Origin: an uncultured virus (IMG/VR IMGVR_UViG_3300020196_000017)
Lineage: Duplodnaviria > Heunggongvirae > Uroviricota > Caudoviricetes
Virus record (IMG/VR): IMGVR_UViG_3300020196_000017
Direction: 5' to 3' (one strand)
DNA length: 20,499 bases
Shown here: one piece after another, positions 1 through 17,141 of the stretch
Numbering within the stretch: position 1 is the stretch's first letter
Layout of the letters: each line of letters starts with the position of its first letter
The notes under the pieces: model-generated
What the model was told of the DNA's origin: nothing
Databases searched by the model: none
What the model saw: only the letters and a program-made list of their open reading frames with translations
Translations under genes and position numbers: made by a program

Positions 1-183
1 GGTAAAATTCAAGCCATTCGTTCTTTCTACATGAAAGACGATGAACTTACTCCGCTCAAGCAACCAGAGTTCCAACTGAAAGTCATCGACTATGCTTTTG
101 GTTCCAAGCCTCAACCAAAGGCCGAACCCAAAGCTACCAAGAAGACCAAAGCTCAGCCTACGCTTGAGCCAGTGGAACTCTAA
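1..183 (+). CDS. 3' end of hypothetical protein (partial, starts before window)
   Basis: Frame 1 open from base 1 to TAA 181-183: GKIQAIRSFYMKDDELTPLKQPEFQLKVIDYAFGSKPQPKAEPKATKKTKAQPTLEPVEL. Confidence 0.75.
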   Translation, partial: GKIQAIRSFYMKDDELTPLKQPEFQLKVIDYAFGSKPQPKAEPKATKKTKAQPTLEPVEL

Positions 184-188
184 TTGAC

Positions 189-237
189 GGTTACACTAAG
201 GGACTTCGGTCCCTTTCTGTAGCCCTCGATGGCTACA
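189..237 (+). promoter_or_regulatory. Structured intergenic element: cUUCGg hairpin within an extended stem, with an alternative pairing
   Basis: AAGGGAC-TTCG-GTCCCTT (198-215); GGTTACA (189-195) or GGCTACA (231-237) can each pair with TGTAGCC (218-224). Confidence 0.6.
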
Positions 238-264
238 CCACTTATTACACATTCACTTCACAAC

Positions 265-456
265 ATGAAACAAGTTATTAAACTACGTCCCAACAGTTAT
301 GTCCACCTTGATTCCTATGGCGAAGCTAAGGATTCATTTATTGCCAACATGCTGATTACTCTTGTTGTTGTCGGTATTGCTGCAATGACAGGAGCCGCTG
401 CTGTTGGCGTGGACATTACTAACATTCAACCTATTACTATTCAACAATCCAAATGA
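265..456 (+). CDS. Small membrane protein, hypothetical
   Basis: ATG 265 follows an AC-rich leader; hydrophobic segment MLITLVVVGIAAMTGAAAVGV; ATGA overlap with next gene. Confidence 0.7.
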   Translation: MKQVIKLRPNSYVHLDSYGEAKDSFIANMLITLVVVGIAAMTGAAAVGVDITNIQPITIQQSK

Positions 457-803
457 CTACTGCCCTTGCATCTCGTTTAGAAACTCTTGCTAATCGCATC
501 AATCAACTCTTTGTTGCATTGTGTGAGAACTATGCCAAGAGCAATGCCGGTAGTAAGTATTACCATCCGGATCAACTTAGTTTTGAAATCGTTTCAGGAA
601 CTAAGTACCACAAAATTGTCATGCACCACCAGGGCAGTCGATCTGTCCATGCGTTTGTCCACAAACAATCTGGTGCTGTCTACAAACCTGCTAGCTGGAA
701 ATCACCAGCTAAACACGTGCGTTACAACTTGCTTGATGACGCATCGTTCGAGGATTGCCTCAAGCGTGCTGACTGGGCAGGTGGGTATTTATACCTACCG
801 TAA
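453..803 (+). CDS. Conserved phage hypothetical protein (SVHAFV..KPASWKxPAKHVRY family)
   Basis: Motif KYHKI...SVHAFV..KxxGxVYKPASWKSPAKHVRYNL recalled from cyanophage/aquatic phage early proteins. Confidence 0.85.
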   Translation: MTTALASRLETLANRINQLFVALCENYAKSNAGSKYYHPDQLSFEIVSGTKYHKIVMHHQGSRSVHAFVHKQSGAVYKPASWKSPAKHVRYNLLDDASFEDCLKRADWAGGYLYLP

Positions 804-810
804 GCCCCAG
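773..810 (+). ncRNA. Motif B copy 1 (stem / CAG..CGUAAGC internal loop / hairpin)
   Basis: CTGGG-CAG-GTGGGTA-TTTA-TACCTAC-CGTAAGC-CCCAG, spanning the stop codon of 453..803. Confidence 0.65.
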
Positions 811-862
811 CTTTGCACACTAGCAAATCCTCGCTATCCTATCAACGTTCCCAACTCATACC

Positions 863-1297
863 ATGGAACTTCTATCCCAGCTTGACGTTCAGAACCCTGA
901 TCACGTCAGCGTTATTACCCGGTCTGGTCGTGTCATTATCTCCGTTCGTAAGAATGGATCTGATGTGACTGTCGGTTTTCCCGTCAACACATCAATCTTT
1001 GACACTACCCCCAGACCCCCGCTGGCACAATCAGCGCCAGCACCTAAACCTATTAGAGACGAACTACGTCAGAAACGTATTGAATCAGCTGCCGCTCGTA
1101 TGAGTAAAGCTGCTCGTTTTAATACCAAACTCACATTGCAATCAGCACGTCAAATTAAAGACATGCTGGTAGACAAAGAGATTATGGCTAAGTTCAGGTC
1201 TAGGCACCAAGCTCATTTGCAAATTGCACAAGCCTATGGTGTGAGCGTTCATGCCATTAGGGCAATTGACAAAGGTACGGCTTGGAAATCTGCCTGA
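863..1297 (+). CDS. Hypothetical protein with C-terminal helix-turn-helix
   Basis: C-term KLT..ARQIK...IAQAYGVSVHAIRAIDKGTAWK resembles the HTH tail seen on phage HNH-associated DNA-binding proteins. Confidence 0.7.
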   Translation: MELLSQLDVQNPDHVSVITRSGRVIISVRKNGSDVTVGFPVNTSIFDTTPRPPLAQSAPAPKPIRDELRQKRIESAAARMSKAARFNTKLTLQSARQIKDMLVDKEIMAKFRSRHQAHLQIAQAYGVSVHAIRAIDKGTAWKSA

Positions 1298-1305
1298 CTT
1301 ATGCC

Positions 1306-1401
1306 ACGTCTTGGGCAGGCGAAGCGTAATGTTTAATCAATGGACTCACTTGGATTTATCCCAGTGGGTCCTACACACCTTCGGTGACGTTAAACTGCCT
1401 A
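1306..1401 (+). ncRNA. Motif A copy 1: H-type pseudoknot with 68-nt structured insertion in L2
   Basis: ACGTC(1306-10) TT GGGCA(1313-17) [1318-1385] GACGT(1386-90) TAAAC TGCCT(1396-1400). Confidence 0.7.
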
Positions 1402-1429
1402 TTCTTTTTGGCTACACAGCATTCAACTC

Positions 1430-1582
1430 ATGGATCTTAATCAATTCGAAAATGACATTCCATCTGATGCACTTGATGCATTAGCTGATCTTGCTTATTT
1501 TCAACGTCAAGCAATGATGGAAGAACTCATTACTCAACCATCTACAACTCATGAAACCATCCTCTACTCCCCAACAACATGA
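1430..1582 (+). CDS. Small acidic hypothetical protein, 50 aa (not in ORF track)
   Basis: MDLNQFENDIPSDALDALADLAYFQRQAMMEELITQPSTTHETILYSPTT; ATG 28 nt after motif A. Confidence 0.6.
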   Translation: MDLNQFENDIPSDALDALADLAYFQRQAMMEELITQPSTTHETILYSPTT

Positions 1583-2003
1583 CATAGTTTTGGTATTGAT
1601 ATTCATTATCATTACCAGCGTTCAGCTCTTCATTCAATTCATTGCAGAACTATGGCATTTCATCCAGTTACCCAAGAAATCGCAGAAGCTTTCGGCTATG
1701 AACCCATGTCCGAAGCTGAGCGTAATCAACAATTCCAGCTCACTCCAAACTACGACTCCATTCAAGACGGAGTCCCAAAAGCTGGAAGTATCTATCTCAA
1801 CAAATGCGGAGTCTATCGCTATTACTGGATCCCAGAAGGTGACAACTACACCGACGAAGAGAAAGGTGACCTCCAAGGCTGGTACGATATCCCGCTCAAC
1901 GAAGACATCGAAGACTGGTGTTTCGATTCCTGCGCTTTCACGCCAGCGGAAGATGAAGTCGAACCTGACCACCCAGACAGCTGGCTTAGGCTTCTCGGTT
2001 TGA
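1551..2003 (+). CDS. Possible membrane protein overlapping 1652..2008 in another frame
   Basis: N-terminal hydrophobic helix IVLVLIFIIITSVQLFIQFIAELWHFI lies mostly outside other ORFs; S/T/K-rich tail overlaps next gene. Confidence 0.4.
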   Translation: MKPSSTPQQHDIVLVLIFIIITSVQLFIQFIAELWHFIQLPKKSQKLSAMNPCPKLSVINNSSSLQTTTPFKTESQKLEVSISTNAESIAITGSQKVTTTPTKRKVTSKAGTISRSTKTSKTGVSIPALSRQRKMKSNLTTQTAGLGFSV

Positions 2004-2008
2004 TTTAA
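1652..2008 (+). CDS. Acidic phage hypothetical protein
   Basis: C-terminal VEPDHPDSWLRLLGLI motif of a type recalled from phage hypotheticals; codon usage like neighbours. Confidence 0.75.
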   Translation: MAFHPVTQEIAEAFGYEPMSEAERNQQFQLTPNYDSIQDGVPKAGSIYLNKCGVYRYYWIPEGDNYTDEEKGDLQGWYDIPLNEDIEDWCFDSCAFTPAEDEVEPDHPDSWLRLLGLI

Positions 2009-2102
2009 GTATTGTTTGCCTACAAGAAACTGTCAATACTGCCCACAGCCTGGATCATTAAAGATCCGGTTGACTCTTCCAAATTCCAACGCACTTCCGA
2101 CA

Positions 2103-2381
2103 ATGCAAAAGTATTTAAATGAGTATTTCGCAGTTTGCGAAGTCTTAGCTGATCTCAAAGCTATTATCCAACGTGAAAATGAACGCCATGAAATGGATCA
2201 ACACCTTGTTCCATCCATGCGTGATCTAATTGAAAACGAAATTATTCCTTTGCTTGAAAATGAGATTGATGCAGATCCAACTCCTCAATATCTCTACGAC
2301 GACACCGGTGGTGAACCTCCGATGACTGCAGCGGAAATACATCACGTTGCCTGGGTGCAACACCAGGCTTTGCACTCGTGA
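2103..2381 (+). CDS. Hypothetical protein
   Basis: ATG 2103 after a G-poor leader preferred over TTG 2016. Confidence 0.7.
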   Translation: MQKYLNEYFAVCEVLADLKAIIQRENERHEMDQHLVPSMRDLIENEIIPLLENEIDADPTPQYLYDDTGGEPPMTAAEIHHVAWVQHQALHS

Positions 2382-2413
2382 TTTTATCTACCGCAAAGTT
2401 AAGAAACCATTAA

Positions 2414-2590
2414 GAAGTAAGGGCTGGTTCGCATTAGAACCTAAGTCTGGTGCGGCCAGACGCCCTTTGCTTCATCATTATTCCGGTTGGGCCTGAACCA
2501 AGCGGAATCCCCTTAAACAATCCACTGGCCAGTGGGTCCCTGCAGGAGACTCACTCATTGTAACCACAGTTACAGGTCCATGGCCAGGGG
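2414..2590. ncRNA. Candidate multi-domain structured RNA
   Basis: Three-way junction 2414-2473, hairpin 2481-2507, multibranch 2525-2587 in a 250-nt intergenic gap. Confidence 0.5.
2559..2574. promoter_or_regulatory. NtcA-like palindrome TGTA-N8-TACA
   Basis: TGTAACCACAGTTACA; could instead be just an RNA hairpin. Confidence 0.4.
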
Positions 2591-2633
2591 TTGACACATC
2601 TGGTAAACTTACAATTCATCACACCATCAACTT

Positions 2634-2852
2634 ATGTCACAGCTCAACGACGCACCCAAGCCCCGCATCCCTGATGCAATGGATTTCCAACGGCTGCAAG
2701 CAATGCAGATCGTTGCCAAGATGAAGGAATCAGCTGACAAATACGGTGTTGGATTCGTTGGTGGATTTGTATCTGCCAACGGTGAAAAATTCATGATGTC
2801 CAACATGTCAGATGAAGACACTTTAATGCTCTTGCCTGAAGATCTCCAATGA
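2634..2852 (+). CDS. Hypothetical protein
   Basis: 72-aa ORF, AC-rich leader, ATGA overlap with next ORF. Confidence 0.75.
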   Translation: MSQLNDAPKPRIPDAMDFQRLQAMQIVAKMKESADKYGVGFVGGFVSANGEKFMMSNMSDEDTLMLLPEDLQ

Positions 2853-3013
2853 AAGAAGTTATTTACTACAAAATCATTTCAATTGATGGACGTGATCACA
2901 CAATTAGTTGTTGTGATTATTCAGAGTCCATTAATGAATTAATTAAAGACAACATTCTTGAAGACAATGATTCAGAAATTGTTGATCACATTTTTCAAGA
3001 GGAATGTACGTGA
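2849..3013 (+). CDS. Small acidic hypothetical protein, 54 aa (not in ORF track)
   Basis: MKEVIYYKIISIDGRDHTISCCDYSESINELIKDNILEDNDSEIVDHIFQEECT; ATGA coupling to upstream stop. Confidence 0.6.
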   Translation: MKEVIYYKIISIDGRDHTISCCDYSESINELIKDNILEDNDSEIVDHIFQEECT

Positions 3014-3094
3014 CTAACAATCAGTCCGAACTAATTGATGCACTTATTGGAGATTTTAACTTTGAACGTGTGTTAACTGAATCATGTACTTGGG

Positions 3095-3304
3095 ATGACT
3101 GACAAATCACCAATTAATTTTGATAGGACAATCCACGGCTTCAATATTACGGAACATGGCATTAAGTCTTATACAAAATCATTCAAGCTTGGACCGTTTC
3201 AGTTAACACTGAACGCCCGTAAGTCTGGTGTCCTTGGGTCGGTATCGATCCCTGGTACTGGCTTGTCCAAGCGAAACATCAACCTATTCAATTTCAACTC
3301 ATGA
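3095..3304 (+). CDS. DUF4236-like small protein
   Basis: KSFKLGPFQLTLN..KSGV..SVSIPGTGLS matches the DUF4236 pattern. Confidence 0.65.
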   Translation: MTDKSPINFDRTIHGFNITEHGIKSYTKSFKLGPFQLTLNARKSGVLGSVSIPGTGLSKRNINLFNFNS

Positions 3305-3516
3305 ATCCAACTGAACTCACACAACTTATTTGCATGATGGAAACACGGGGCGGTTCTTTTGTAGCCGCCATCGGTGCAGCCTTGCGTTATGCAGATCCTG
3401 TCAATCGGCAACGATTGCTTGATGCATTTCCAGATCTTGTAGAAAAGTATGGCCCCAACGGCATGTTTGCTGTTGCTCGTGCCATGGCAGAAGACCTTAT
3501 CTCAAACAAATCATGA
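3301..3516 (+). CDS. Conserved phage hypothetical protein
   Basis: GGSF...IGAAL..ADPxNxxRLxxAFPDLxxKY motif; ATGA overlaps on both sides. Confidence 0.8.
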   Translation: MNPTELTQLICMMETRGGSFVAAIGAALRYADPVNRQRLLDAFPDLVEKYGPNGMFAVARAMAEDLISNKS

Positions 3517-3770
3517 CCGTCCTTGCAATCGAAGACACTTCTATTGATGGATCCCATGTCACAGTTACAGCTGTTGTGGATGAGATGCGTCTCATCTACC
3601 GTGCAACTCAGTTTGAACCTGAGGAATATGCTCCTGCATTATGCAGCGCAAGCTTTGAGCTGGATCCAGAGGAACAAATTCCTGTTGATGAAGATGGCTT
3701 CTGTAGTTATCTTGATCAACGAGATTTGCTCTGGCAACTGGTCGACACTTCCGACTGGGATCTAGATTGA
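3513..3770 (+). CDS. Acidic hypothetical protein
   Basis: 85-aa ORF translationally coupled to previous gene. Confidence 0.75.
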   Translation: MTVLAIEDTSIDGSHVTVTAVVDEMRLIYRATQFEPEEYAPALCSASFELDPEEQIPVDEDGFCSYLDQRDLLWQLVDTSDWDLD

Positions 3771-3775
3771 TTCAC

Positions 3776-3803
3776 TGTCCTGAGCATGACATTAAACTGC
3801 TCA
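3776..3803 (+). ncRNA. Motif A copy 2 (H-type pseudoknot)
   Basis: TGTC CT GAGCA T GACA TTAAAC TGCTC A; 28 nt upstream of ATG 3832. Confidence 0.75.
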
Positions 3804-3831
3804 ACACTACGAACTCAACTCTGAACTCACC

Positions 3832-5580
3832 ATGCAATTCCGACTCCCAGAACAACTGCAAACTGAGTTGCTTGCGTATGATCCCAAGCTTAAAGCTCTA
3901 GCTCGCAGTCAAAATCCTAAGAAACAAACCAAGAAAGCAACGCATCCACTTGGTAATCCAAATGATTTGATTCCAGATGATGTTGTTCGTGCATCGCTGC
4001 TTCAAGATGCAATCGATAATATCAACGGTAATCCTGCCGCAGGTAGGTTTCAAATCTTTACCAAAGTGGTAGATGTTGCTACACCCGAAGCACGTACCGT
4101 TACTGTTGCCATTCTTTACTACTATGAGCAATGCTGGTATGCAGCATGGCTTCCGCCCAAGGGTAAAGAAAATGAGTATCTCTACGGTTATGCATATGCA
4201 TATAAAGATACTGCAACAGCATTGAAAATGGTATCACGCTCACTAAATGAAGAAAGACATGAAAACCTAACAGTTGAAAAGCAATATGGACGCAGCAAAT
4301 TTTTTGTGCGTCAAGCTGTTATTACAATTGAAGATGTGCGTAAATCTAAATATGATCAATCGGTAAGACGTTGGAATATTCCAGGTGTTACTTCGTATTA
4401 TCGAAAATCGCAAGATATGTACAGAGCAATTACTGGATTCGAAGACGCATTGCGTAACAAAATTCCTACCTGGTCTGATTCCAGGGGGATCTTTGATCGT
4501 GTTCGTTGCACTGGAATCGGTAACCTTCTGATTGAAGAAGCAACACCCAATGTAGTTGCTGATCTTGAATCGTGGTTGCCTTCATATGAATCGTTGATGC
4601 AGATCATTGATTCAGATCCAGGGGAGTATCCATATCGTTTGGTAGAGTATCGTTCGTTTGCATCTATTAAGCACATTATTAATACACCGTATTTCCGTAG
4701 GTGGATTCAACAACAATGTGATTTATCCATTGCTACATTCAATAATCCAGCCACAGAATATGCGGCAGATGTCAAGCGTCCGTGGTTGACAATCAAAGCA
4801 TATCTCGGTGCTATCAATAGTATCTACGCAATCTGGCCTAATTGTCCCATTGATTACTATCAAAATAATATTGACGTATTGCTCGGTGTTACTTTCCGTT
4901 TGAATCAAAACGAAAAGACATTTGAATGGCTACGTCAACATATGCCAATTGCATCATTTATCGGCATCTTGTCTAAGTTTTACCAAGAACAATTGCAAGA
5001 GGCTAAAAAAGATAATCGTTTGCACCACCGCCGTAGCTTGTATTATAGCGAACGTTTGGGAAGAAACGTATTTAGCTTCTCTGATCTCAGTGATGCACTA
5101 TCAATGCTGACTCAGGTTCTATCCCATGGAGATCTTGAACCACCTAAGCGTTGGCGCATCGCTGAGTTCCATGATTATGTACAAGGTGAAGCCTGGAAGA
5201 TCAAGAATCCAAATGAAGGTCTGCCCCAAGACTTGTTCCCGCAACCAGTCAAGGTGCAACTTGATGGTGAAACTTGGTTATTCTTCCAGCCATATGACAC
5301 ACACCAGCTGTCAAGCTGGGGTCAAGCTGTTCGTAATTGCATTGGTTCTGCTACGCATTATGCGGAAGACTGCAAGAAGAAGAAACACTTTATTGTTCTG
5401 TGCATGATTGACGGTAAGCCTCAGTTCACCATTCAACTCACCGTTGATATGGGTATGATGTCCGTCAAGCAAATTGCTGGCATTGCCAACAAGAGTCTCA
5501 CGCAAGAACAGAAAGATCAATACACTCAAGCATTTGGCTTGGCCTTGCAATCTCGTAACGCTCAGCTAGTATCTGCGTAG
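3832..5580 (+). CDS. PcfJ-domain-containing protein
   Basis: C-terminal HD...P....L..WG..VRNCIGS..Y...C......IV......P..TIQL......QI.G..N is the PcfJ-like signature; long N-terminal region unrecognised. Confidence 0.75.
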   Translation: MQFRLPEQLQTELLAYDPKLKALARSQNPKKQTKKATHPLGNPNDLIPDDVVRASLLQDAIDNINGNPAAGRFQIFTKVVDVATPEARTVTVAILYYYEQCWYAAWLPPKGKENEYLYGYAYAYKDTATALKMVSRSLNEERHENLTVEKQYGRSKFFVRQAVITIEDVRKSKYDQSVRRWNIPGVTSYYRKSQDMYRAITGFEDALRNKIPTWSDSRGIFDRVRCTGIGNLLIEEATPNVVADLESWLPSYESLMQIIDSDPGEYPYRLVEYRSFASIKHIINTPYFRRWIQQQCDLSIATFNNPATEYAADVKRPWLTIKAYLGAINSIYAIWPNCPIDYYQNNIDVLLGVTFRLNQNEKTFEWLRQHMPIASFIGILSKFYQEQLQEAKKDNRLHHRRSLYYSERLGRNVFSFSDLSDALSMLTQVLSHGDLEPPKRWRIAEFHDYVQGEAWKIKNPNEGLPQDLFPQPVKVQLDGETWLFFQPYDTHQLSSWGQAVRNCIGSATHYAEDCKKKKHFIVLCMIDGKPQFTIQLTVDMGMMSVKQIAGIANKSLTQEQKDQYTQAFGLALQSRNAQLVSA

Positions 5581-5592
5581 TTTCCACGGCTT

Positions 5593-5621
5593 GCCGGTCT
5601 TAGTCTCGTACTAAGGCCGGT
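5593..5621 (+). promoter_or_regulatory. Strong intergenic hairpin
   Basis: GCCGGTCTTAGT-CTCGT-ACTAAGGCCGGT, 12-bp stem, no U tract. Confidence 0.5.
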
Positions 5622-5632
5622 ACCTCGTACTT

Positions 5633-5848
5633 ATGGAATACACTGACGATCAACTCCTTGCCATGGCACTTGGCAATATCGGTGATTTCATCCATGACAA
5701 TTCACCACACTATGTGTTGATCGAAGAAGATTTTCGCAACGATGAGGACTACGACACTTGGGATTATGGCACTGAGCCATTGCCCCAAGATCACACTTGG
5801 CGTCATACATCTATTGATGTTTGTGTAAGTCCAAGTGCGCCTGAGTAG
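5633..5848 (+). CDS. Acidic hypothetical protein whose 3' end overlaps motif B and the tRNA
   Basis: 71-aa ORF; stop TAG lies inside the first 10 nt of the tRNA. Confidence 0.65.
   Translation: MEYTDDQLLAMALGNIGDFIHDNSPHYVLIEEDFRNDEDYDTWDYGTEPLPQDHTWRHTSIDVCVSPSAPE
5794..5837 (+). ncRNA. Motif B copy 2
   Basis: CACTTGG-CGT-CAtACATC-TATT-GATGTtTG-TGTAAGT-CCAAGTG; ends 1 nt before tRNA +1. Confidence 0.7.
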
Positions 5849-5914
5849 CCCAGCGGAAGAGGCAAACGACTTAAAATCGTTCCAGCGTGGGTTCGAATCC
5901 CACCTCAGGTACCA
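5839..5914 (+). tRNA. tRNA-Leu(UAA), 76 nt, encoded CCA, short variable loop
   Basis: Acceptor GCCTGAG/CTCAGGT, discriminator A, CCA; anticodon arm AACGA-CTTAAAA-TCGTT (TAA 5872-5874); T arm GTGGG-TTCGAAT-CCCAC. Confidence 0.95.
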
Positions 5915-5941
5915 ACACACTTCATTTCATTTGGTTTTATC

Positions 5942-6172
5942 ATGCACATTCCTTTGTATAAAGACCCGTTTGAACCTGGTCGTAATTCTTTACTAACCAG
6001 AGAACAAAGAATTTATTTGTACAGACAACGCAAATCTGGAACAACGTTAAAACAGTTATCAATAGAATTAAATATTACAAAAGAACGTATACGACAAATT
6101 TATTTTAAAACAAATAGAATTATTGATTCTATTAAAGTAATTAATAAAGAGAAGTATCAAACAATGGTTTAA
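5942..6172 (+). CDS. Stand-alone sigma-70 region 4-like HTH protein
   Basis: LTREQRIYLYR...GTTLKQLSIELNITKERIRQI parallels sigma region 4 (TLxEIGxxLxVTRERIRQI); visibly AT-richer than neighbours. Confidence 0.7.
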   Translation: MHIPLYKDPFEPGRNSLLTREQRIYLYRQRKSGTTLKQLSIELNITKERIRQIYFKTNRIIDSIKVINKEKYQTMV

Positions 6173-9169: not shown

Positions 9170-9196
9170 TGTCCTAAGCATGACATTAAACTGTTA
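9170..9196 (+). ncRNA. Motif A copy 3
   Basis: TGTC CT AAGCA T GACA TTAAAC TGTT; followed by hairpin CATATAAG/CTTATGTG and leader of the GP88-like gene. Confidence 0.7.
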
Positions 9197-9258
9197 GGTG
9201 CATATAAGTTTTACTTATGTGTGGCCGTACATTCTTCAACTCAACCCAAGTCAACACA

Positions 9259-10369: not shown

Positions 10370-12173
10370 GCGGTGGTACGTTGTTGATATTGAAACAGAT
10401 AACCTTTACGACAAAGTTACAAAAATATATTGTATTGTTCTCCACGATGTCCAAGGAGAACAGACTTTTACTTATGGGCCTGATCGTATTGCTGACGGTC
10501 TTGAGCATATGGCTAACGCTCATGTGCTCATTGGTCACAACATCATCTTTTACGATCTGCCGGTTATAAGAAAACTTTATCCTTTTTATACATTTAAAGC
10601 AGCTCGACTTATCGACACACTCATTTGCACTCGACTTATCTGGCCTAAGGAAGTTCTTTATGATCTCGACACAGAACAATATACGGAGGTTCCAAAGAAT
10701 CTCTGTGGTTCAGCCTCGCTTAAAGCATGGGGCTACCGATTGGCAGACAATAAAATTGAATTTAAAGACTTCACGAAATTCTCTAACGAAATGTTGGAGT
10801 ACTGCGTCCAGGACGTTAATGTCACCACTCAACTCTTTAGGCTTGTTCAAAAGCAAAACTATAGAGAGTCGGCATTACGGCTTGAACATGATTTTGCCAT
10901 CTCCATTAATGAACAAATTAGAACAGGTTTTCCTTTTGATGTTGATGCATGCCTTGATCTTGTGGATGTGCTTAGAACAAGACAAACGGAACTCGAAAGC
11001 AATTTAAAAGAAATCTTTCCGCCTATTAAACATGAAGAAGTATTTATTCCCAAAGTAAATAACGCTAAACGTGGTTATGTTAAAGGCGAACCATTCACTA
11101 AAGTCTTGTACCAAGAATTTAATCCTGGCTCTCGTGAACAAATTGTTGAAAGACTTAAAAACAAATACGGGTGGTCCCCTGCAAAAACTACGGATAAAGG
11201 CAATCCGGTGCTTAATGACGATGTACTGGAAGCACTTCCATACCCCGAAGCAAAACCACTTGCGGAATACATGCTTGTCAAGAAACGTCTTGGGCAAATA
11301 GCTGATGGATCCAACGCATGGTTAAAGCTTGTCAACAATGACACCGGTTGTATTCACGGTGATGTAATTACTAACGGCTGCATTACGGGTCGTTGTGCGC
11401 ACCGTAATCCCAACATGGGTCAGGTACCTGCAAGTTATTCGCCATATGGAAAAGAATGCCGATCATTATTCCATACGCCCCAGGGATGGGCATTGATTGG
11501 TGTTGATGCCAAAGCGTTGGAACTCAGATGCCTTGCTGGTTATTTGGCACATTGGGATAGTGGTGAATACGCACGTATTGTTACTGATGAATCAATTGAC
11601 ATTCATGTTTATAACCAAGAGCGATTTGGTGTAGCTACCAGGGATATCAGTAAGCGTTTACTCTATGGGCTTCTATATGGGTGTGGTGCATTGAAGGCTG
11701 GCACTATTATTGATCCGAATGAAAAAGATGAAATTGTTCTGCGTCGTATGGGAGGTAACGCAATTAATTCATTCATGAATAGTGTGCCTGCTTTGCGTCA
11801 GCTTAAACAAAAGATTGAATCAACTATTCAAGAACGTAATTACTTGCGTGGGCTTGATGGCCGTGCACTTTTTTGTAGATCTGAATTCAAAGGATTAAAT
11901 GTTTTATTGCAATCATCTGGTGCATTAATTATGAAACAAGTTGTTATTGAACTTCACAAAACTATGTATGAAGAAGGGTATGTCTACGGCATGGACTGGC
12001 AGCAAAATGCCATGATCCATGACGAACTTCAATTGTCTTGTCCGTCTCACATGATTGACACTTTGAAACAAGAAGCGCTTGATTCATTTCCAAAAGCTCA
12101 GCAATTCTTTGGATTTCAATGTCTTATTGAGGGTGATGCCCATGTAGGATCCTGCTGGGCTGAGACGCATTAG
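10347..12173 (+). CDS. polA: Family A DNA polymerase, T7 gp5-like (3'-5' exonuclease + polymerase)
   Basis: ExoI DIET, ExoII GHNIIFYD, ExoIII YCVQDV, TGR, motif A DAKALELR, motif B RDISKRLLYGLLYG, motif C IHDE; start 10347 or 10308. Confidence 0.96.
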   Translation: MKDVSGSERWYVVDIETDNLYDKVTKIYCIVLHDVQGEQTFTYGPDRIADGLEHMANAHVLIGHNIIFYDLPVIRKLYPFYTFKAARLIDTLICTRLIWPKEVLYDLDTEQYTEVPKNLCGSASLKAWGYRLADNKIEFKDFTKFSNEMLEYCVQDVNVTTQLFRLVQKQNYRESALRLEHDFAISINEQIRTGFPFDVDACLDLVDVLRTRQTELESNLKEIFPPIKHEEVFIPKVNNAKRGYVKGEPFTKVLYQEFNPGSREQIVERLKNKYGWSPAKTTDKGNPVLNDDVLEALPYPEAKPLAEYMLVKKRLGQIADGSNAWLKLVNNDTGCIHGDVITNGCITGRCAHRNPNMGQVPASYSPYGKECRSLFHTPQGWALIGVDAKALELRCLAGYLAHWDSGEYARIVTDESIDIHVYNQERFGVATRDISKRLLYGLLYGCGALKAGTIIDPNEKDEIVLRRMGGNAINSFMNSVPALRQLKQKIESTIQERNYLRGLDGRALFCRSEFKGLNVLLQSSGALIMKQVVIELHKTMYEEGYVYGMDWQQNAMIHDELQLSCPSHMIDTLKQEALDSFPKAQQFFGFQCLIEGDAHVGSCWAETH

Positions 12174-12408: not shown

Positions 12409-12435
12409 CGTCCCAGGTATGACGTTAAACTGCCT
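12409..12435 (+). ncRNA. Motif A copy 4
   Basis: CGTC CC AGGTA T GACG TTAAAC TGCCT; 20 nt upstream of the ssb ATG. Confidence 0.75.
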
Positions 12436-12455
12436 TCTACTACTCTTTTGTATCT

Positions 12456-13268
12456 ATGAACTTTGTAAGCATTTGCGCACAAACAACTGAGGAGCCTCGC
12501 GAGGTTTACGTCAGTGCCACATCTACTGCAATTCGTTGCAATGTTTTGTTGCCTCCAGTAGGGAACAAAGCACCTACTCCAATTGAACTTAACGTTTATG
12601 GAAAAAACTCAGAGCGGTTTGCTCGTACAACGAAGCACTCCAAGGTCTTCATTCATGGCGCAAAATTACGCTTTGACCTTGACTCCAGAACGTATTCATT
12701 GCATGGAGGAGTTATCGCTACGGTTGATGAAACGTTCCCTATCTTTAACACAGTCATCCTCAGTGGCCGTTGCGTTAAAGACATCTATCGCGATGACGAA
12801 CGCGCTTTCAAAACAACCACTGATGGATTGATGGTCTGCAATCAAACCTTATCAGTAAGTACTGGTAAGAACCAAGCAGATCTGTTTAACTTTTATGCAA
12901 TTAATACAAGTCAAGACAAGTTAAACAATGCGGAACTACTTGTTAATTTCACGCGTAAAGGTGTTGGCCTCACGATTAATGGCCGTTTGGTTACTGATGA
13001 ATGGAATGATTCTCAAACCAAAGAACGCAAGCATGCTACCAAGATCCAATTGGTAAGTATGACCCTGGCTCCCAAGGCTTCGCTGCCTAATAAAGATGGT
13101 GAAGGTCGGGAGATTAAACCGCAGACAACAGTTAACGGTGCAGGGAAAGTTGCTTCGCTTTGGGGCGGAAAAACATTGGATGACAATCCTTGGGATCAGA
13201 CGAGCGGGCTACCGGATTTGCCTGGTCAGTACGGTGCTGCACCTGATCTTGACAACGAACCTTTCTAA
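12456..13268 (+). CDS. ssb: Single-stranded DNA-binding protein with two tandem OB folds
   Basis: MNFVSIC...EPR and FNTVILSGR..KD...GVGLTINGRL..DEW.D..T.ERK repeats; G/P-rich linker; acidic tip DLDNEPF. Confidence 0.85.
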   Translation: MNFVSICAQTTEEPREVYVSATSTAIRCNVLLPPVGNKAPTPIELNVYGKNSERFARTTKHSKVFIHGAKLRFDLDSRTYSLHGGVIATVDETFPIFNTVILSGRCVKDIYRDDERAFKTTTDGLMVCNQTLSVSTGKNQADLFNFYAINTSQDKLNNAELLVNFTRKGVGLTINGRLVTDEWNDSQTKERKHATKIQLVSMTLAPKASLPNKDGEGREIKPQTTVNGAGKVASLWGGKTLDDNPWDQTSGLPDLPGQYGAAPDLDNEPF

Positions 13269-13782: not shown

Positions 13783-13810
13783 ACGTCCTGGGATGACGTT
13801 AAAAGCATCC
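13783..13810 (+). ncRNA. Motif A copy 5 (variant)
   Basis: ACGTC CT GGGAT GACGT TAAAA GC ATCC; P2 shifted (GGAT/ATCC); 21 nt upstream of ATG 13832. Confidence 0.55.
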
Positions 13811-16732: not shown

Positions 16733-17105
16733 CACCTATGGTCTTTCTAACGATCAATACAAAAAAATCTTTTTACAAAAAGCTGAGTTTACTATTGCTC
16801 TTTTAACGGCACTCAAAGTCAAAGCTGAGGCCCAGGGTCATAGGCTTGACAATTACACCGACAAATTTATCTGGGATCTGTTCCAGGAGGTTGCATACGC
16901 TTCTGATGAAGAAGCTCGTGTGTACCAAAAGGAACATGACCCTGAGTCGGTCAAGAAGCACAGCTTTGACTATGGCGTTATTGCTACCAGGGAAGAACTG
17001 ATGGGAGAAATTCAATCTGTCTCTGCCAAAGTTGAAGCACTTGCTGATTATGTTGGCCAGTTGACTGAGAGCATTAAGGAGGGCTTGACAGAGCAGGTAG
17101 ACTGA
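16722..17105 (+). CDS. Hypothetical protein with coiled-coil C-terminus
   Basis: ATG 16722 overlaps upstream gene end. Confidence 0.7.
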   Translation: MALDTYGLSNDQYKKIFLQKAEFTIALLTALKVKAEAQGHRLDNYTDKFIWDLFQEVAYASDEEARVYQKEHDPESVKKHSFDYGVIATREELMGEIQSVSAKVEALADYVGQLTESIKEGLTEQVD

Positions 17106-17112
17106 TCGTCCT

Positions 17113-17141
17113 ACGTCCTGAGCAAGACGTTAAACTGCTTA
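17113..17141 (+). ncRNA. Motif A copy 6
   Basis: ACGTC CT GAGCA A GACGT TAAAC TGCTT A; 24 nt upstream of ATG 17166. Confidence 0.75.

What the first reader, a model, noticed from the sequence alone, without database searches (positions are those of the whole stretch)
1306..1401. Motif A copy with a 68-nt structured domain inserted exactly at the 1-nt L2 position
Seen: where other copies have a single T/A between P2a and P1b, this copy has 1318-1385. The insert folds on itself: CGAAG(1320-24)/CTTCG(1379-83) closes a 9-bp stem GGACTCACT(1342-50)/AGTGGGTCC(1363-71) capped by GGA-TTTA-TCC. Both pseudoknot stems remain intact. Inference: tolerance of a self-contained insertion argues strongly that motif A works as folded RNA, not a dsDNA operator. 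This copy may be an elaborated or ancestral form with an extra sensor or protein-binding module.
Basis: partly seen in the sequence, partly recalled or inferred. Interest (0 to 1): 0.72.

Follow-up and report, generated by a model that had tools for sequence, protein, structure and literature searches.

The report
Coremin-like phage RNA knot with extra arm
One copy of a small knotted RNA that sits between genes of this lake cyanophage carries an extra 68-base hairpin arm at a fixed spot; related phages keep the same arm at the same gene junction, so the element works as folded RNA, and it resembles a plant-virus RNA that stops RNA-degrading enzymes.

Summary
Window 1306-1401 is a true copy of "motif A", split by a 68-nt hairpin (1318-1385) where other copies have one base. 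Motif A is a real H-type RNA pseudoknot. In 120 distinct copies from other viral contigs its second stem covaries strongly, and G·U pairs outnumber A·C 114 to 15. That places the fold on the sense strand, not in duplex DNA.

The insert is not a one-off. Three other contigs (two independent lineages plus a near-duplicate) carry a 67-nt arm at the same gene junction. The arms share a conserved base (CGAAG...CUUCGGU) and have different, compensating apical stems. Four further relatives have an ordinary copy there. Elsewhere, the same loop varies from 1 to 26 nt.

The core letters of motif A equal the plant-virus coremin Xrn1-resistant RNA. No Rfam family matches, and my searches found no paper on phages.

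The most likely function is a 5'-to-3' roadblock that shields the downstream message, with the arm as an accessory helix. This is inferred, not shown. Earlier agents of this scan had already noted the knot; the conserved arm is the new part.

The parts
1306..1310 (+). P1 (S1) 5' strand, ACGTC. C1307-G1389, G1308-C1388, T1309-A1387, C1310-G1386; possible fifth pair A1306-T1390.
   Evidence: 100% paired in all four arm-bearing copies.
1311..1311 (+). L1, a single T (C in most copies). Corresponds to the Y of the coremin loop.
   Evidence: natural L1 = T copies; coremin nucleotide 5.
1312..1317 (+). P2 (S2) 5' strand, TGGGCA. Pairs with 1396-1401.
   Evidence: Pair 9-96 of alignment A2 is G-C here and A-U in the other three (compensatory).
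1318..1385 (+). P3 arm inserted at L2. Base stem 1320-1324/1379-1383; 1326-1327/1377-1378; 1330-1332/1373-1375; 9-nt asymmetric loop 1333-1341; 9-bp stem 1342-1350/1363-1371; 1x1 mismatch 1351/1362; 3-bp stem 1352-1354/1359-1361; loop TTTA 1355-1358. Linkers GG (1318-1319) and GT (1384-1385).
   Evidence: fold, z -2.70. (homologous 67-nt arms in L284, L285, L286 with conserved base and compensating apical pairs).
1386..1389 (+). P1 (S1) 3' strand, GACG.
1390..1395 (+). L3, TTAAAC. A-rich loop, identical to the coremin spacer UUAAAC.
1396..1401 (+). P2 (S2) 3' strand, TGCCTA.
863..1297 (+). Upstream gene (144 aa, no family hit). Its stop ends 8 nt before A1306. Used as the orthology anchor.
1430..1582 (+). 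Downstream small gene (50 aa). Starts 28 nt after P2b. Homologues follow the element in relatives.
3776..3803 (+). Canonical motif A copy, before the 582-aa gene that starts at 3832.
   Evidence: 47.3 bits.
9170..9197 (+). Canonical motif A copy, before the GP88-like gene.
   Evidence: 38.6 bits.
12409..12436 (+). Canonical motif A copy, before the SSB gene that starts at 12456.
   Evidence: 45.7 bits.
17114..17141 (+). Canonical motif A copy, after the gene that ends at 17105.
   Evidence: 47.9 bits.
13783..13810 (+). Degenerate copy overlapping the ATG at 13793 (spacer TTAAAA, shifted P2). The model did not report it.
   Evidence: Absent at E <= 10. The S-EIV1 orthologue (L414:15386) is a proper copy, 29.8 bits.

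Best explanation
Window 1306-1401 is transcribed as part of a multi-gene phage message and folds into a coremin-like H-type pseudoknot. P1 is CGUC/GACG, L1 is one pyrimidine, P2 is 6 bp, and L3 is UUAAAC. A third helix, P3 (about 22 bp with internal loops), grows out of the P2-to-P1 junction, where ordinary copies have one base.

Shown here:
- the fold is supported by covariation;
- it lies on the sense strand;
- the arm is conserved in architecture at the same gene junction in related S-EIV1-like cyanophages;
- the junction loop tolerates 1 to 26 nt in other phages.

Inferred:
- Like plant-virus coremin, the knot acts as a mechanical barrier to machines that move 5' to 3' on RNA. In cyanobacteria the obvious candidates are RNase J and 5'-end-dependent RNase E.
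- The cistron behind it (1430-1582 and onward) would thereby get a protected 5' boundary, set about 28 nt before its start codon.
- The P3 arm is an accessory helix that leaves the knot intact. It most likely braces or stabilises the fold, much as the obligatory second hairpin does in coremin. It could also serve as a docking or cutting site.
For: Structure:
- 120 distinct copies, 93.1% of cells paired against 84.4% in shuffles; 135 double-change cells against 49.8; covariation 0.388 against 0.215 (0 of 500); slid controls at most 0.119.
- G·U 114 against A·C 15.

The arm:
- 67-nt inserts in L272/L284, L273/L285 and L278/L286, with P2 6 of 6 pairs and folds of -22.8 to -32.1 kcal/mol.
- P1 and P2 100% paired, P3 base 96.4% paired, and 5 pairs with changes on both sides.
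- the flanking ORFs are orthologous.
- arm-bearing copies fall in both starred clades.
- L2 of 2-3 nt is common, and 6, 9, 15, 18, 24 and 26 nt occur with P2 intact.

Coremin link:
- GUCCGAAGACGUUAAACUAC, as printed in PMC10520033.
- hairpin 1 stem, YGAD loop and essential spacer A16-A20 (PMC6546385, parts 1-2 read).
- the H-type pseudoknot model with L1 = nucleotide 5, and a Watson-Crick variant (PMC10321173, passages read).
- a flavivirus xrRNA also stops bacterial RNase J1 in vitro (PMC5760640, passages read).

Placement:
- of 129 distinct viral instances, an upstream ORF's stop ends within 40 nt before the motif in 79, with a mode at 5 nt. The next start lies 0-60 nt after it in 77, with a mode at 18-27 nt.
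- no promoter-like site beside any copy.
- in three Bacillaceae/Paenibacillus genomes the copy sits just ahead of scaffold- and capsid-like genes.

Host clue:
- the DNA polymerase is 75.7% identical to that of Synechococcus phage S-EIV1.
- S-EIV1 has six to seven copies.
Against: - No RNA data: no RNA run holds this phage, so transcription, 5' ends and resistance to nucleases are all unobserved.
- Coremin needs a hairpin directly downstream. The phage copies show no conserved downstream feature.
- Position 20 of the spacer is G, not A, and the loop is 8 nt, not 4 or 6.
- L1 in this copy is U. In the Watson-Crick coremin variant that change abolished resistance.
- The model built from canonical copies sees only the 3' core of the split copy (11.6 bits, E 1.1).
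- The insert's fold is only moderately better than shuffles (z -2.70), and the antisense strand folds nearly as well (z -2.14).
- The arm family has only three independent sequences.
- A stop codon 5 nt upstream would place a terminating ribosome on P1, which fits a role in translation as well as one in decay.
- The invariant core letters in alignment A1 were fixed by the search pattern, so their conservation is not measured there.
Confidence: 0.55

Rival explanations
1. The knot acts on translation, not on decay. Placed a few bases after a stop codon and about 20 bases before the next start, it would insulate or couple neighbouring cistrons. It could halt ribosomes that slide on after termination, or set the 5' edge of the initiation site on leaders that lack a Shine-Dalgarno sequence. 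The arm would tune this.
For:: sharp mode of 5 nt between stop codon and motif, and 18-27 nt from motif to start; coremin blocks scanning ribosomes in vitro (abstract and passages of PMC10520033); coremin stimulates -1 frameshifting; the window's leaders lack Shine-Dalgarno sequences.
Against: Bacterial initiation does not depend on scanning from the 5' end. The copies in Bacillaceae do have a Shine-Dalgarno sequence behind the motif. Spacing to the stop codon is broad outside the mode. There is no direct evidence.
Confidence: 0.2
2. The P3 arm is a cutting site for a double-strand-specific endonuclease such as RNase III, embedded in the knot. Cleavage would separate the upstream and downstream messages and leave the downstream piece with a structured 5' end.
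For: P3 has about 22-26 bp with small internal loops in all arm-bearing copies. From general knowledge, not from a call: T7 has processing hairpins between cistrons. The arm occurs at only one junction per genome.
Against: No cleavage data. No conserved sequence was seen in the apical stem, where RNase III would cut. The conserved part is the base, next to the knot.
Confidence: 0.12
3. The insert is a neutral or selfish insertion, such as a small palindromic element or a recombination scar, that has inactivated this copy. The flanking halves merely have not decayed yet.
For: L1 is T instead of C. The canonical model does not recognise the copy as a whole. Duplicated and tandem halves in other phages show that these sites rearrange. 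Hairpin mini-elements that split tRNA genes are known from this scan.
Against: The arm is single-copy in the genome and absent elsewhere in the viral collection apart from three unrelated hits. The same architecture sits at the orthologous junction in lineages whose flanking protein is only 50-69% identical. There P1 and P2 are fully paired, with a compensating P2 change, and the arm base is conserved. Natural canonical copies with L1 = T exist.
Confidence: 0.08
4. The element acts as DNA: an operator, a promoter for a phage factor, a replication or recombination signal, or a single-strand DNA structure.
For: Highly conserved 12-nt core. Several same-strand copies ahead of genes. Copies mark boundaries where relatives differ (the G001 copy at 61473 lies in a diverged segment).
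Against: G·U against A·C asymmetry, 114 to 15. P2 changes sequence freely while keeping its pairs. A 68-nt insertion and 1-26-nt length variation lie between the two halves. No promoter-like sites. No phage RNA polymerase was found among the proteins scanned, though not all were scanned.
Confidence: 0.03

Closest known systems
[quoted passage not shown]
   Same: - Letters (C)GUCC...A-D-GACGUUAAACU are shared.
- 4-bp hairpin-1 stem with a C-G closing pair.
- A single pyrimidine as L1.
- An A-rich spacer proposed to lie in the minor groove of S1.
- Loop-to-spacer pairing that starts at the A-U pair corresponding to coremin 7-19.
- Small size, and several copies per genome in some viruses.
   Different: - S2 is 6 Watson-Crick pairs instead of 2-3, partly non-canonical.
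- The loop is 8 nt, not 4 or 6, and does not fit YGAD/YGNNAD at the second position.
- Spacer position 20 is G.
- There is no obligatory downstream hairpin 2.
- It lies in dsDNA phages and bacterial genomes, between cistrons, not in 3' UTRs of RNA viruses.
- Nuclease resistance is untested.
- The copy studied here also carries a 68-nt helix at the position of the loop's last base.
Flavivirus and tombusvirus-type exoribonuclease-resistant RNAs (PMC5760640)
   Same: Proposed working principle: a compact pseudoknotted fold that blocks 5'-to-3' enzymes mechanically. One such RNA stops bacterial RNase J1 in vitro.
   Different: Those are 60-80-nt three-way-junction rings with no sequence likeness. 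The ring topology is not shown for coremin or for the phage knot.
H-type pseudoknots with an embedded hairpin, and luteovirus frameshift pseudoknots such as BWYV. BWYV is named in PMC10321173; preQ1-II is recalled from general knowledge.
   Same: Short S1, one-base L1 and A-rich L3 (BWYV). A helix inserted in a pseudoknot loop (preQ1-II, recalled).
   Different: No slippery site, and the element is not in a coding frame. Rfam riboswitch and ribozyme models gave no hit. BWYV does not stop Xrn1.

Membership tests
Coremin / xrRNA-C | Hairpin 1: 3-4 bp stem (C)GUC/GAC(G) with a C-G loop-closing pair | tested here: met
   Window copy CGUC 1307-1310 / GACG 1386-1389. Y-R outer pair is CG 65, UG 23, UA 17 of 120. 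The inner three pairs were fixed by the search pattern, so their invariance is not measured.
Coremin / xrRNA-C | Loop 1 fits YGAD (4 nt) or YGNNAD (6 nt) | tested here: not met
   The loop is 8 nt. The first base is Y (C, or U in this copy). The penultimate A holds in 118 of 120. The last base is U 79, A 29, C 11, G 1. The second base is U in 102 of 120, not G. In the copy studied, the last position is replaced by 68 nt.
Coremin / xrRNA-C | Conserved spacer UUAAACUAC, with A16-A20 essential | tested here: inconclusive
   UUAAACU is identical; position 20 is G (it pairs in P2). The pattern fixed TTAAACTG. S-EIV1 copies found by the model vary (CUAAAC, UUAAAG, UAAAAC), and one reads AAACUAC.
Coremin / xrRNA-C | A second hairpin directly downstream, required for resistance | tested here: not met
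   No information content beyond P2b in 129 instances. My inference only: the 6-bp P2 may stand in for S2 plus hairpin 2.
Coremin / xrRNA-WCC | Pseudoknot pairing of loop nucleotides 6-8 with spacer 20-18 | tested here: met
   A-U at the pair equivalent to 7-19 in 118 of 120; the next pair is CG 75 or UG 45; four further covarying pairs. In the window copy G1318 could pair with C1395, equivalent to 8-18.
Coremin / xrRNA-C | Stalls Xrn1 or another 5'-3' exonuclease one base before hairpin 1 | not testable with these tools
   No RNA run holds the phage. An enzyme assay is needed.
H-type RNA pseudoknot | Two crossing helices supported by covariation on one strand | tested here: met
Known small ribozymes and riboswitches in Rfam 15 (which families it holds, e.g. 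pistol or preQ1, is recalled, not checked) | Match to the family's covariance model | tested here: not met
   No relevant hit at E <= 1 over the window, nor at E <= 10 on 3760-3835 and 1290-1430.
RNase III processing hairpin | About two turns of dsRNA at an intercistronic site, cut in vivo | tested here: inconclusive
   P3 has about 22 bp with interruptions. Cleavage is not testable here.

The most novel reading that the evidence does not exclude
The arm-bearing copies are natural three-helix versions of a coremin-class roadblock, in which formation of the knot depends on P3. The two halves lie 68 nt apart and meet only when P3 folds. Anything that binds, melts or cuts P3 (a phage or host protein, temperature, RNase III) would therefore switch protection of the downstream early message on or off. 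That would be a conditional exonuclease barrier, a kind of control not described in bacteria or phages.
Probability: 0.12. Interest if true: 0.85.

Novelty: new variant of a known kind. Interest (0 to 1): 0.62.

Why it matters
- Coremin had no solved structure in 2023, and its pseudoknot was still a hypothesis. The phage copies supply what the plant-virus copies cannot: hundreds of natural sequence variants whose covariation fixes the pairing.
- The arm-bearing copies show that the junction base can be replaced by a whole helix. That is independent evidence for the fold.
- They also mark a natural place to graft crystallisation or labelling modules.
- If the phage knot does stop RNase J or RNase E, it would extend exonuclease-resistant RNAs from eukaryotic RNA viruses to DNA phages and bacteria. 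It would also help explain how phages set different lifetimes for parts of one long message.
- A conserved optional arm at a single gene junction points to gene-specific tuning.

Tried and rejected
- **RNA evidence:** no RNA holder was listed for window 1000-6000. Contigs of four DNA runs laid on 900-1700 show the arm-bearing form, with no joined (arm-less) form and no variation inside the element. This says nothing about expression.
- **Close relatives with a varied arm:** the single metagenome scan returned only records identical to G001 in the element.
- **Inserts of 33-63 nt:** the 22 loci turned out to be canonical copies with a chance or duplicated upstream half, not true L2 inserts.
- **The arm as a dispersed element:** not found. 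It is single-copy in G001 and in the window. There were three unrelated hits in the viral collection.
- **Link to the hairpin at 2529-2555:** the shared 11-mer and 8-mer are each at chance level.
- **Promoter reading:** no sigma-70-like site lies next to any copy. The window has 19 sites against 39.9 expected.
- **Rfam:** nothing.
- **Megablast of window 1-6000 against isolated phages:** no match.
- **S-EIV1:** it lacks the ORF 863/1430 junction, so the isolate cannot show the arm.
- window's own assembly not held; a pattern that began with an ambiguity letter; a script key error (fixed).

Full report
**What is in the window.** The window is a block of plus-strand early and replication genes of a phage: ThyX-type thymidylate synthase, family A DNA polymerase, SSB and a tRNA-Leu. 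The DNA polymerase is 75.7% identical to that of Synechococcus phage S-EIV1, so this is an S-EIV1-like freshwater cyanophage. The nearest held record is G001 (64,632 bp), which is identical in the region of the finding.

A 28-30-nt repeat occurs four times in canonical form, at 3776, 9170, 12409 and 17114. It also occurs once in degenerate form at 13783 and once split at 1306-1401. Its layout is Y-GTC, C, a 6-mer, one base, GAC-R, TTAAAC, and the complement of the 6-mer.

**The observation.**
- The 5' half is ACGTC-T-TGGGCA at 1306-1317. The insert is 1318-1385. The 3' half is GACG-TTAAAC-TGCCTA at 1386-1401.
- The insert folds as described: -22.2 kcal/mol, z -2.70, 3 of 200 shuffles as good. 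The antisense strand folds almost as well (z -2.14), so energy alone does not pick the strand.
- A CGTC-N-6-mer able to pair with TGCCTA is expected about 0.0005 times per 120 nt, so the 5' half is not a chance match.

**Motif A is a real RNA pseudoknot.**
- I aligned the 120 distinct 38-nt copies. In the named structure 93.1% of cells pair, against 84.4% in shuffles. 135 cells carry a change on both sides, against 49.8 +/- 8.3, and 0 of 500 shuffles reach that. The covariation score is 0.388 against 0.215, and no slid control exceeds 0.119.
- The three inner P1 pairs and the TG of P2 were fixed by the pattern and say nothing. The four free P2 pairs carry the signal.
- G·U cells number 114 and A·C cells 15. 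The helices therefore exist on the sense strand.
- No conserved sequence flanks the motif, and no promoter-like site lies beside any window copy.
- Among 129 distinct instances, 79 have an upstream ORF whose stop ends within 40 nt before the motif, with a mode at 5 nt. In 77 the next start codon lies 0-60 nt after it, with a mode at 18-27 nt. The motif is an intercistronic RNA element.

**The split copy is a true copy, and its arm is conserved.**
- Relatives of the upstream gene (863-1297) were found in eight viral loci. Four of them (L145, L146, L147, L151) have a canonical, arm-less copy at the same junction. Three (L148-L150) have none.
- A scan for 64-94-nt gaps gave 19 loci. Three of these (L272, L273, L278) have a 67-nt insert with all six P2 pairs. 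The rest are tandem copies or chance matches.
- The 3' junction CTTCGGT-GACRTTAAACTG occurs in exactly four viral contigs: G001 and these three.
- Their flanking ORFs are orthologous to 863-1297 and 1430-1582.
- All four inserts fold into one long hairpin, at -22.2, -22.8, -31.1 and -32.1 kcal/mol. They share the base CGAAG (CAAAG in L284)...CUUCG-GU. They also share a bulged pyrimidine, a long stem, a 1x1 U·Y mismatch, and a 2-3-bp cap with a U-rich tetraloop.
- On the alignment, P1 and P2 are 100% paired and the P3 base is 96.4% paired. Five pairs change on both sides. These include a P2 pair that is G-C in the window and A-U in the others, and two pairs of the 9-bp stem between the window and L284.
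- The apical part of L285/L286 has a different sequence and was misaligned by MAFFT, which lowers the apical figure to 72.9%.
- L285 and L286 are near-identical, so there are three independent arm sequences.
- In a tree of the upstream protein, arm-bearing copies lie in both strongly supported clades, next to arm-less ones. The arm is therefore old with repeated loss, or it is exchanged among phages. The tree is unrooted and mostly unresolved, so direction cannot be told.
- Each arm-bearing genome also has two to five canonical copies on the same strand.

**The junction loop is a variable site in general.** A scan for 2-32-nt gaps gave 50 loci. L2 of 2-3 nt is common. Inserts of 6, 9, 15, 18, 24 and 26 nt occur with P2 intact, and the 18- and 24-nt ones form small hairpins. 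A scan for 33-63 nt gave 22 loci, none of them a true insert. Canonical copies with L1 = T, as in the window's split copy, exist in other phages.

**Closest known.**
- A literature search on the core letters led to the coremin motif of plant RNA viruses.
- As printed in PMC10520033, coremin is GUCCGAAGACGUUAAACUAC.
- PMC6546385 (parts 1-2 read) defines hairpin 1 as CGUC/GACG with loop YGAD, followed by a 10-nt spacer in which A16-A20 are essential and by an obligatory second hairpin.
- PMC10321173 (passages read) proposes an H-type pseudoknot. Nucleotide 5 is L1, loop nucleotides 6-8 pair with 20-18, and the A-rich spacer lies in the S1 groove. The paper also describes a Watson-Crick variant.
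- The phage motif has the same S1, the same L1 and the same UUAAACU. Its first P2 pair corresponds to coremin 7-19. It extends S2 to 6 bp and lacks hairpin 2.
- My inference: the long S2 may replace S2 plus the stacked hairpin 2.
- The three coremin papers I searched for the words do not mention phages or bacteria. PMC10520033 and PMC10321173 had zero occurrences. PMC6546385 was read only in parts 1-2 of 4.
- Searches for coremin, xrRNA with bacteriophage, exoribonuclease-resistant with RNase J, and cyanophage with pseudoknot found no description of the phage element.
- The library lacks most subscription journals. I did not open the supplement of PMC10690425, which lists over ten thousand unnamed candidate viral RNAs, twelve of them upstream of ssDNA-binding genes.
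- Rfam 15 has no matching family.

**Spread.**
- The motif also occurs in bacterial genomes and MAGs of many phyla. Of 123 pattern matches, 95 have at least five contiguous P2 pairs.
- Five genomes examined have one copy each. In two Bacillaceae and one Paenibacillus genome it lies just ahead of scaffold- and capsid-like genes. In two Desulfotomaculia-type genomes it follows a tiny conserved ORF.
- S-EIV1 has six or seven copies, among them ones before the GP88-like, SSB and DUF5895 genes, as in the window.

**How it most likely works.** Shown: the fold, its strand, its intercistronic place, and the tolerance and conservation of a helix at L2. Inferred: a mechanical barrier to 5'-to-3' enzymes that protects the downstream cistron. 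The inference rests on three things:
- the near-identity to coremin;
- the fact that another xrRNA stops bacterial RNase J1 in vitro;
- the position ahead of heavily used genes.

The arm may brace the fold, or it may be a site for a protein or for RNase III. Nothing here decides between these. A role in translation fits the stop-codon spacing equally well and is kept as the main rival.

**Earlier notes of this scan.** After I had reached the coremin link, a look-up showed that other agents had reported the same knot in other phage windows with the same reading. None mentions an insertion at L2. These notes are not independent evidence.

Noticed in passing
window 2382-2633: A 252-nt ORF-free spacer that folds very strongly as RNA (-85.7 kcal/mol, z -4.84, 0 of 200 shuffles). 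It contains a hairpin at 2529-2555 whose two strands resemble the apical stem of the finding's arm, but in swapped order. Each shared word alone is at chance level.
   Followed up: partly
window 11285-11296: Inside the DNA polymerase gene, the 12-mer ACGTCTTGGGCA is identical to the split copy's 5' half, with no 3' half behind it. It is also present in G001 but has no counterpart in G007-G009. Probably coincidence.
   Followed up: partly
L162, L183, L185, L191, L201; L208, L209, L216, L282; L180: Other phages carry a second 5' half 20-65 nt upstream of a canonical copy, in one group with an AAGGAG between them. Both halves can pair with the single 3' half. This could be a switch or a recombination scar.
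   Followed up: no
L409, L410, L411 (Heyndrickxia, Bacillus, Paenibacillus genomes): A single motif copy lies just upstream of scaffold-like and major-capsid-like genes. In L409 and L410 it directly follows a gene of about 480 aa. A Shine-Dalgarno sequence lies behind it.
   Followed up: partly
L412, L413 (Desulfotruncus, Desulforudis genomes): The motif follows a conserved ORF of about 18 aa (MLR.xWMLR..C..GC). In one genome it is followed by a terminator-like hairpin. This is a non-phage-looking context.
   Followed up: no
viral loci L011-L143: The stop codon of the upstream ORF ends exactly 5 nt before the motif in a large share of instances. That would place P1 at the entrance of a terminating ribosome.
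   Followed up: partly
L414:18636-18673 (S-EIV1): One S-EIV1 copy has the spacer AAACUAC, as in plant coremin, with a C·A mismatch at the second P2 pair.
   Followed up: no
window 1374-1386: The invariant 3' junction ACCUUCGGUG of all four arm-bearing copies can also form a mini-hairpin, (C/U)ACC-UUC-GGUG. This takes G1386 away from P1. It appears in the nested minimum-energy fold. It may be an alternative state.
   Followed up: no
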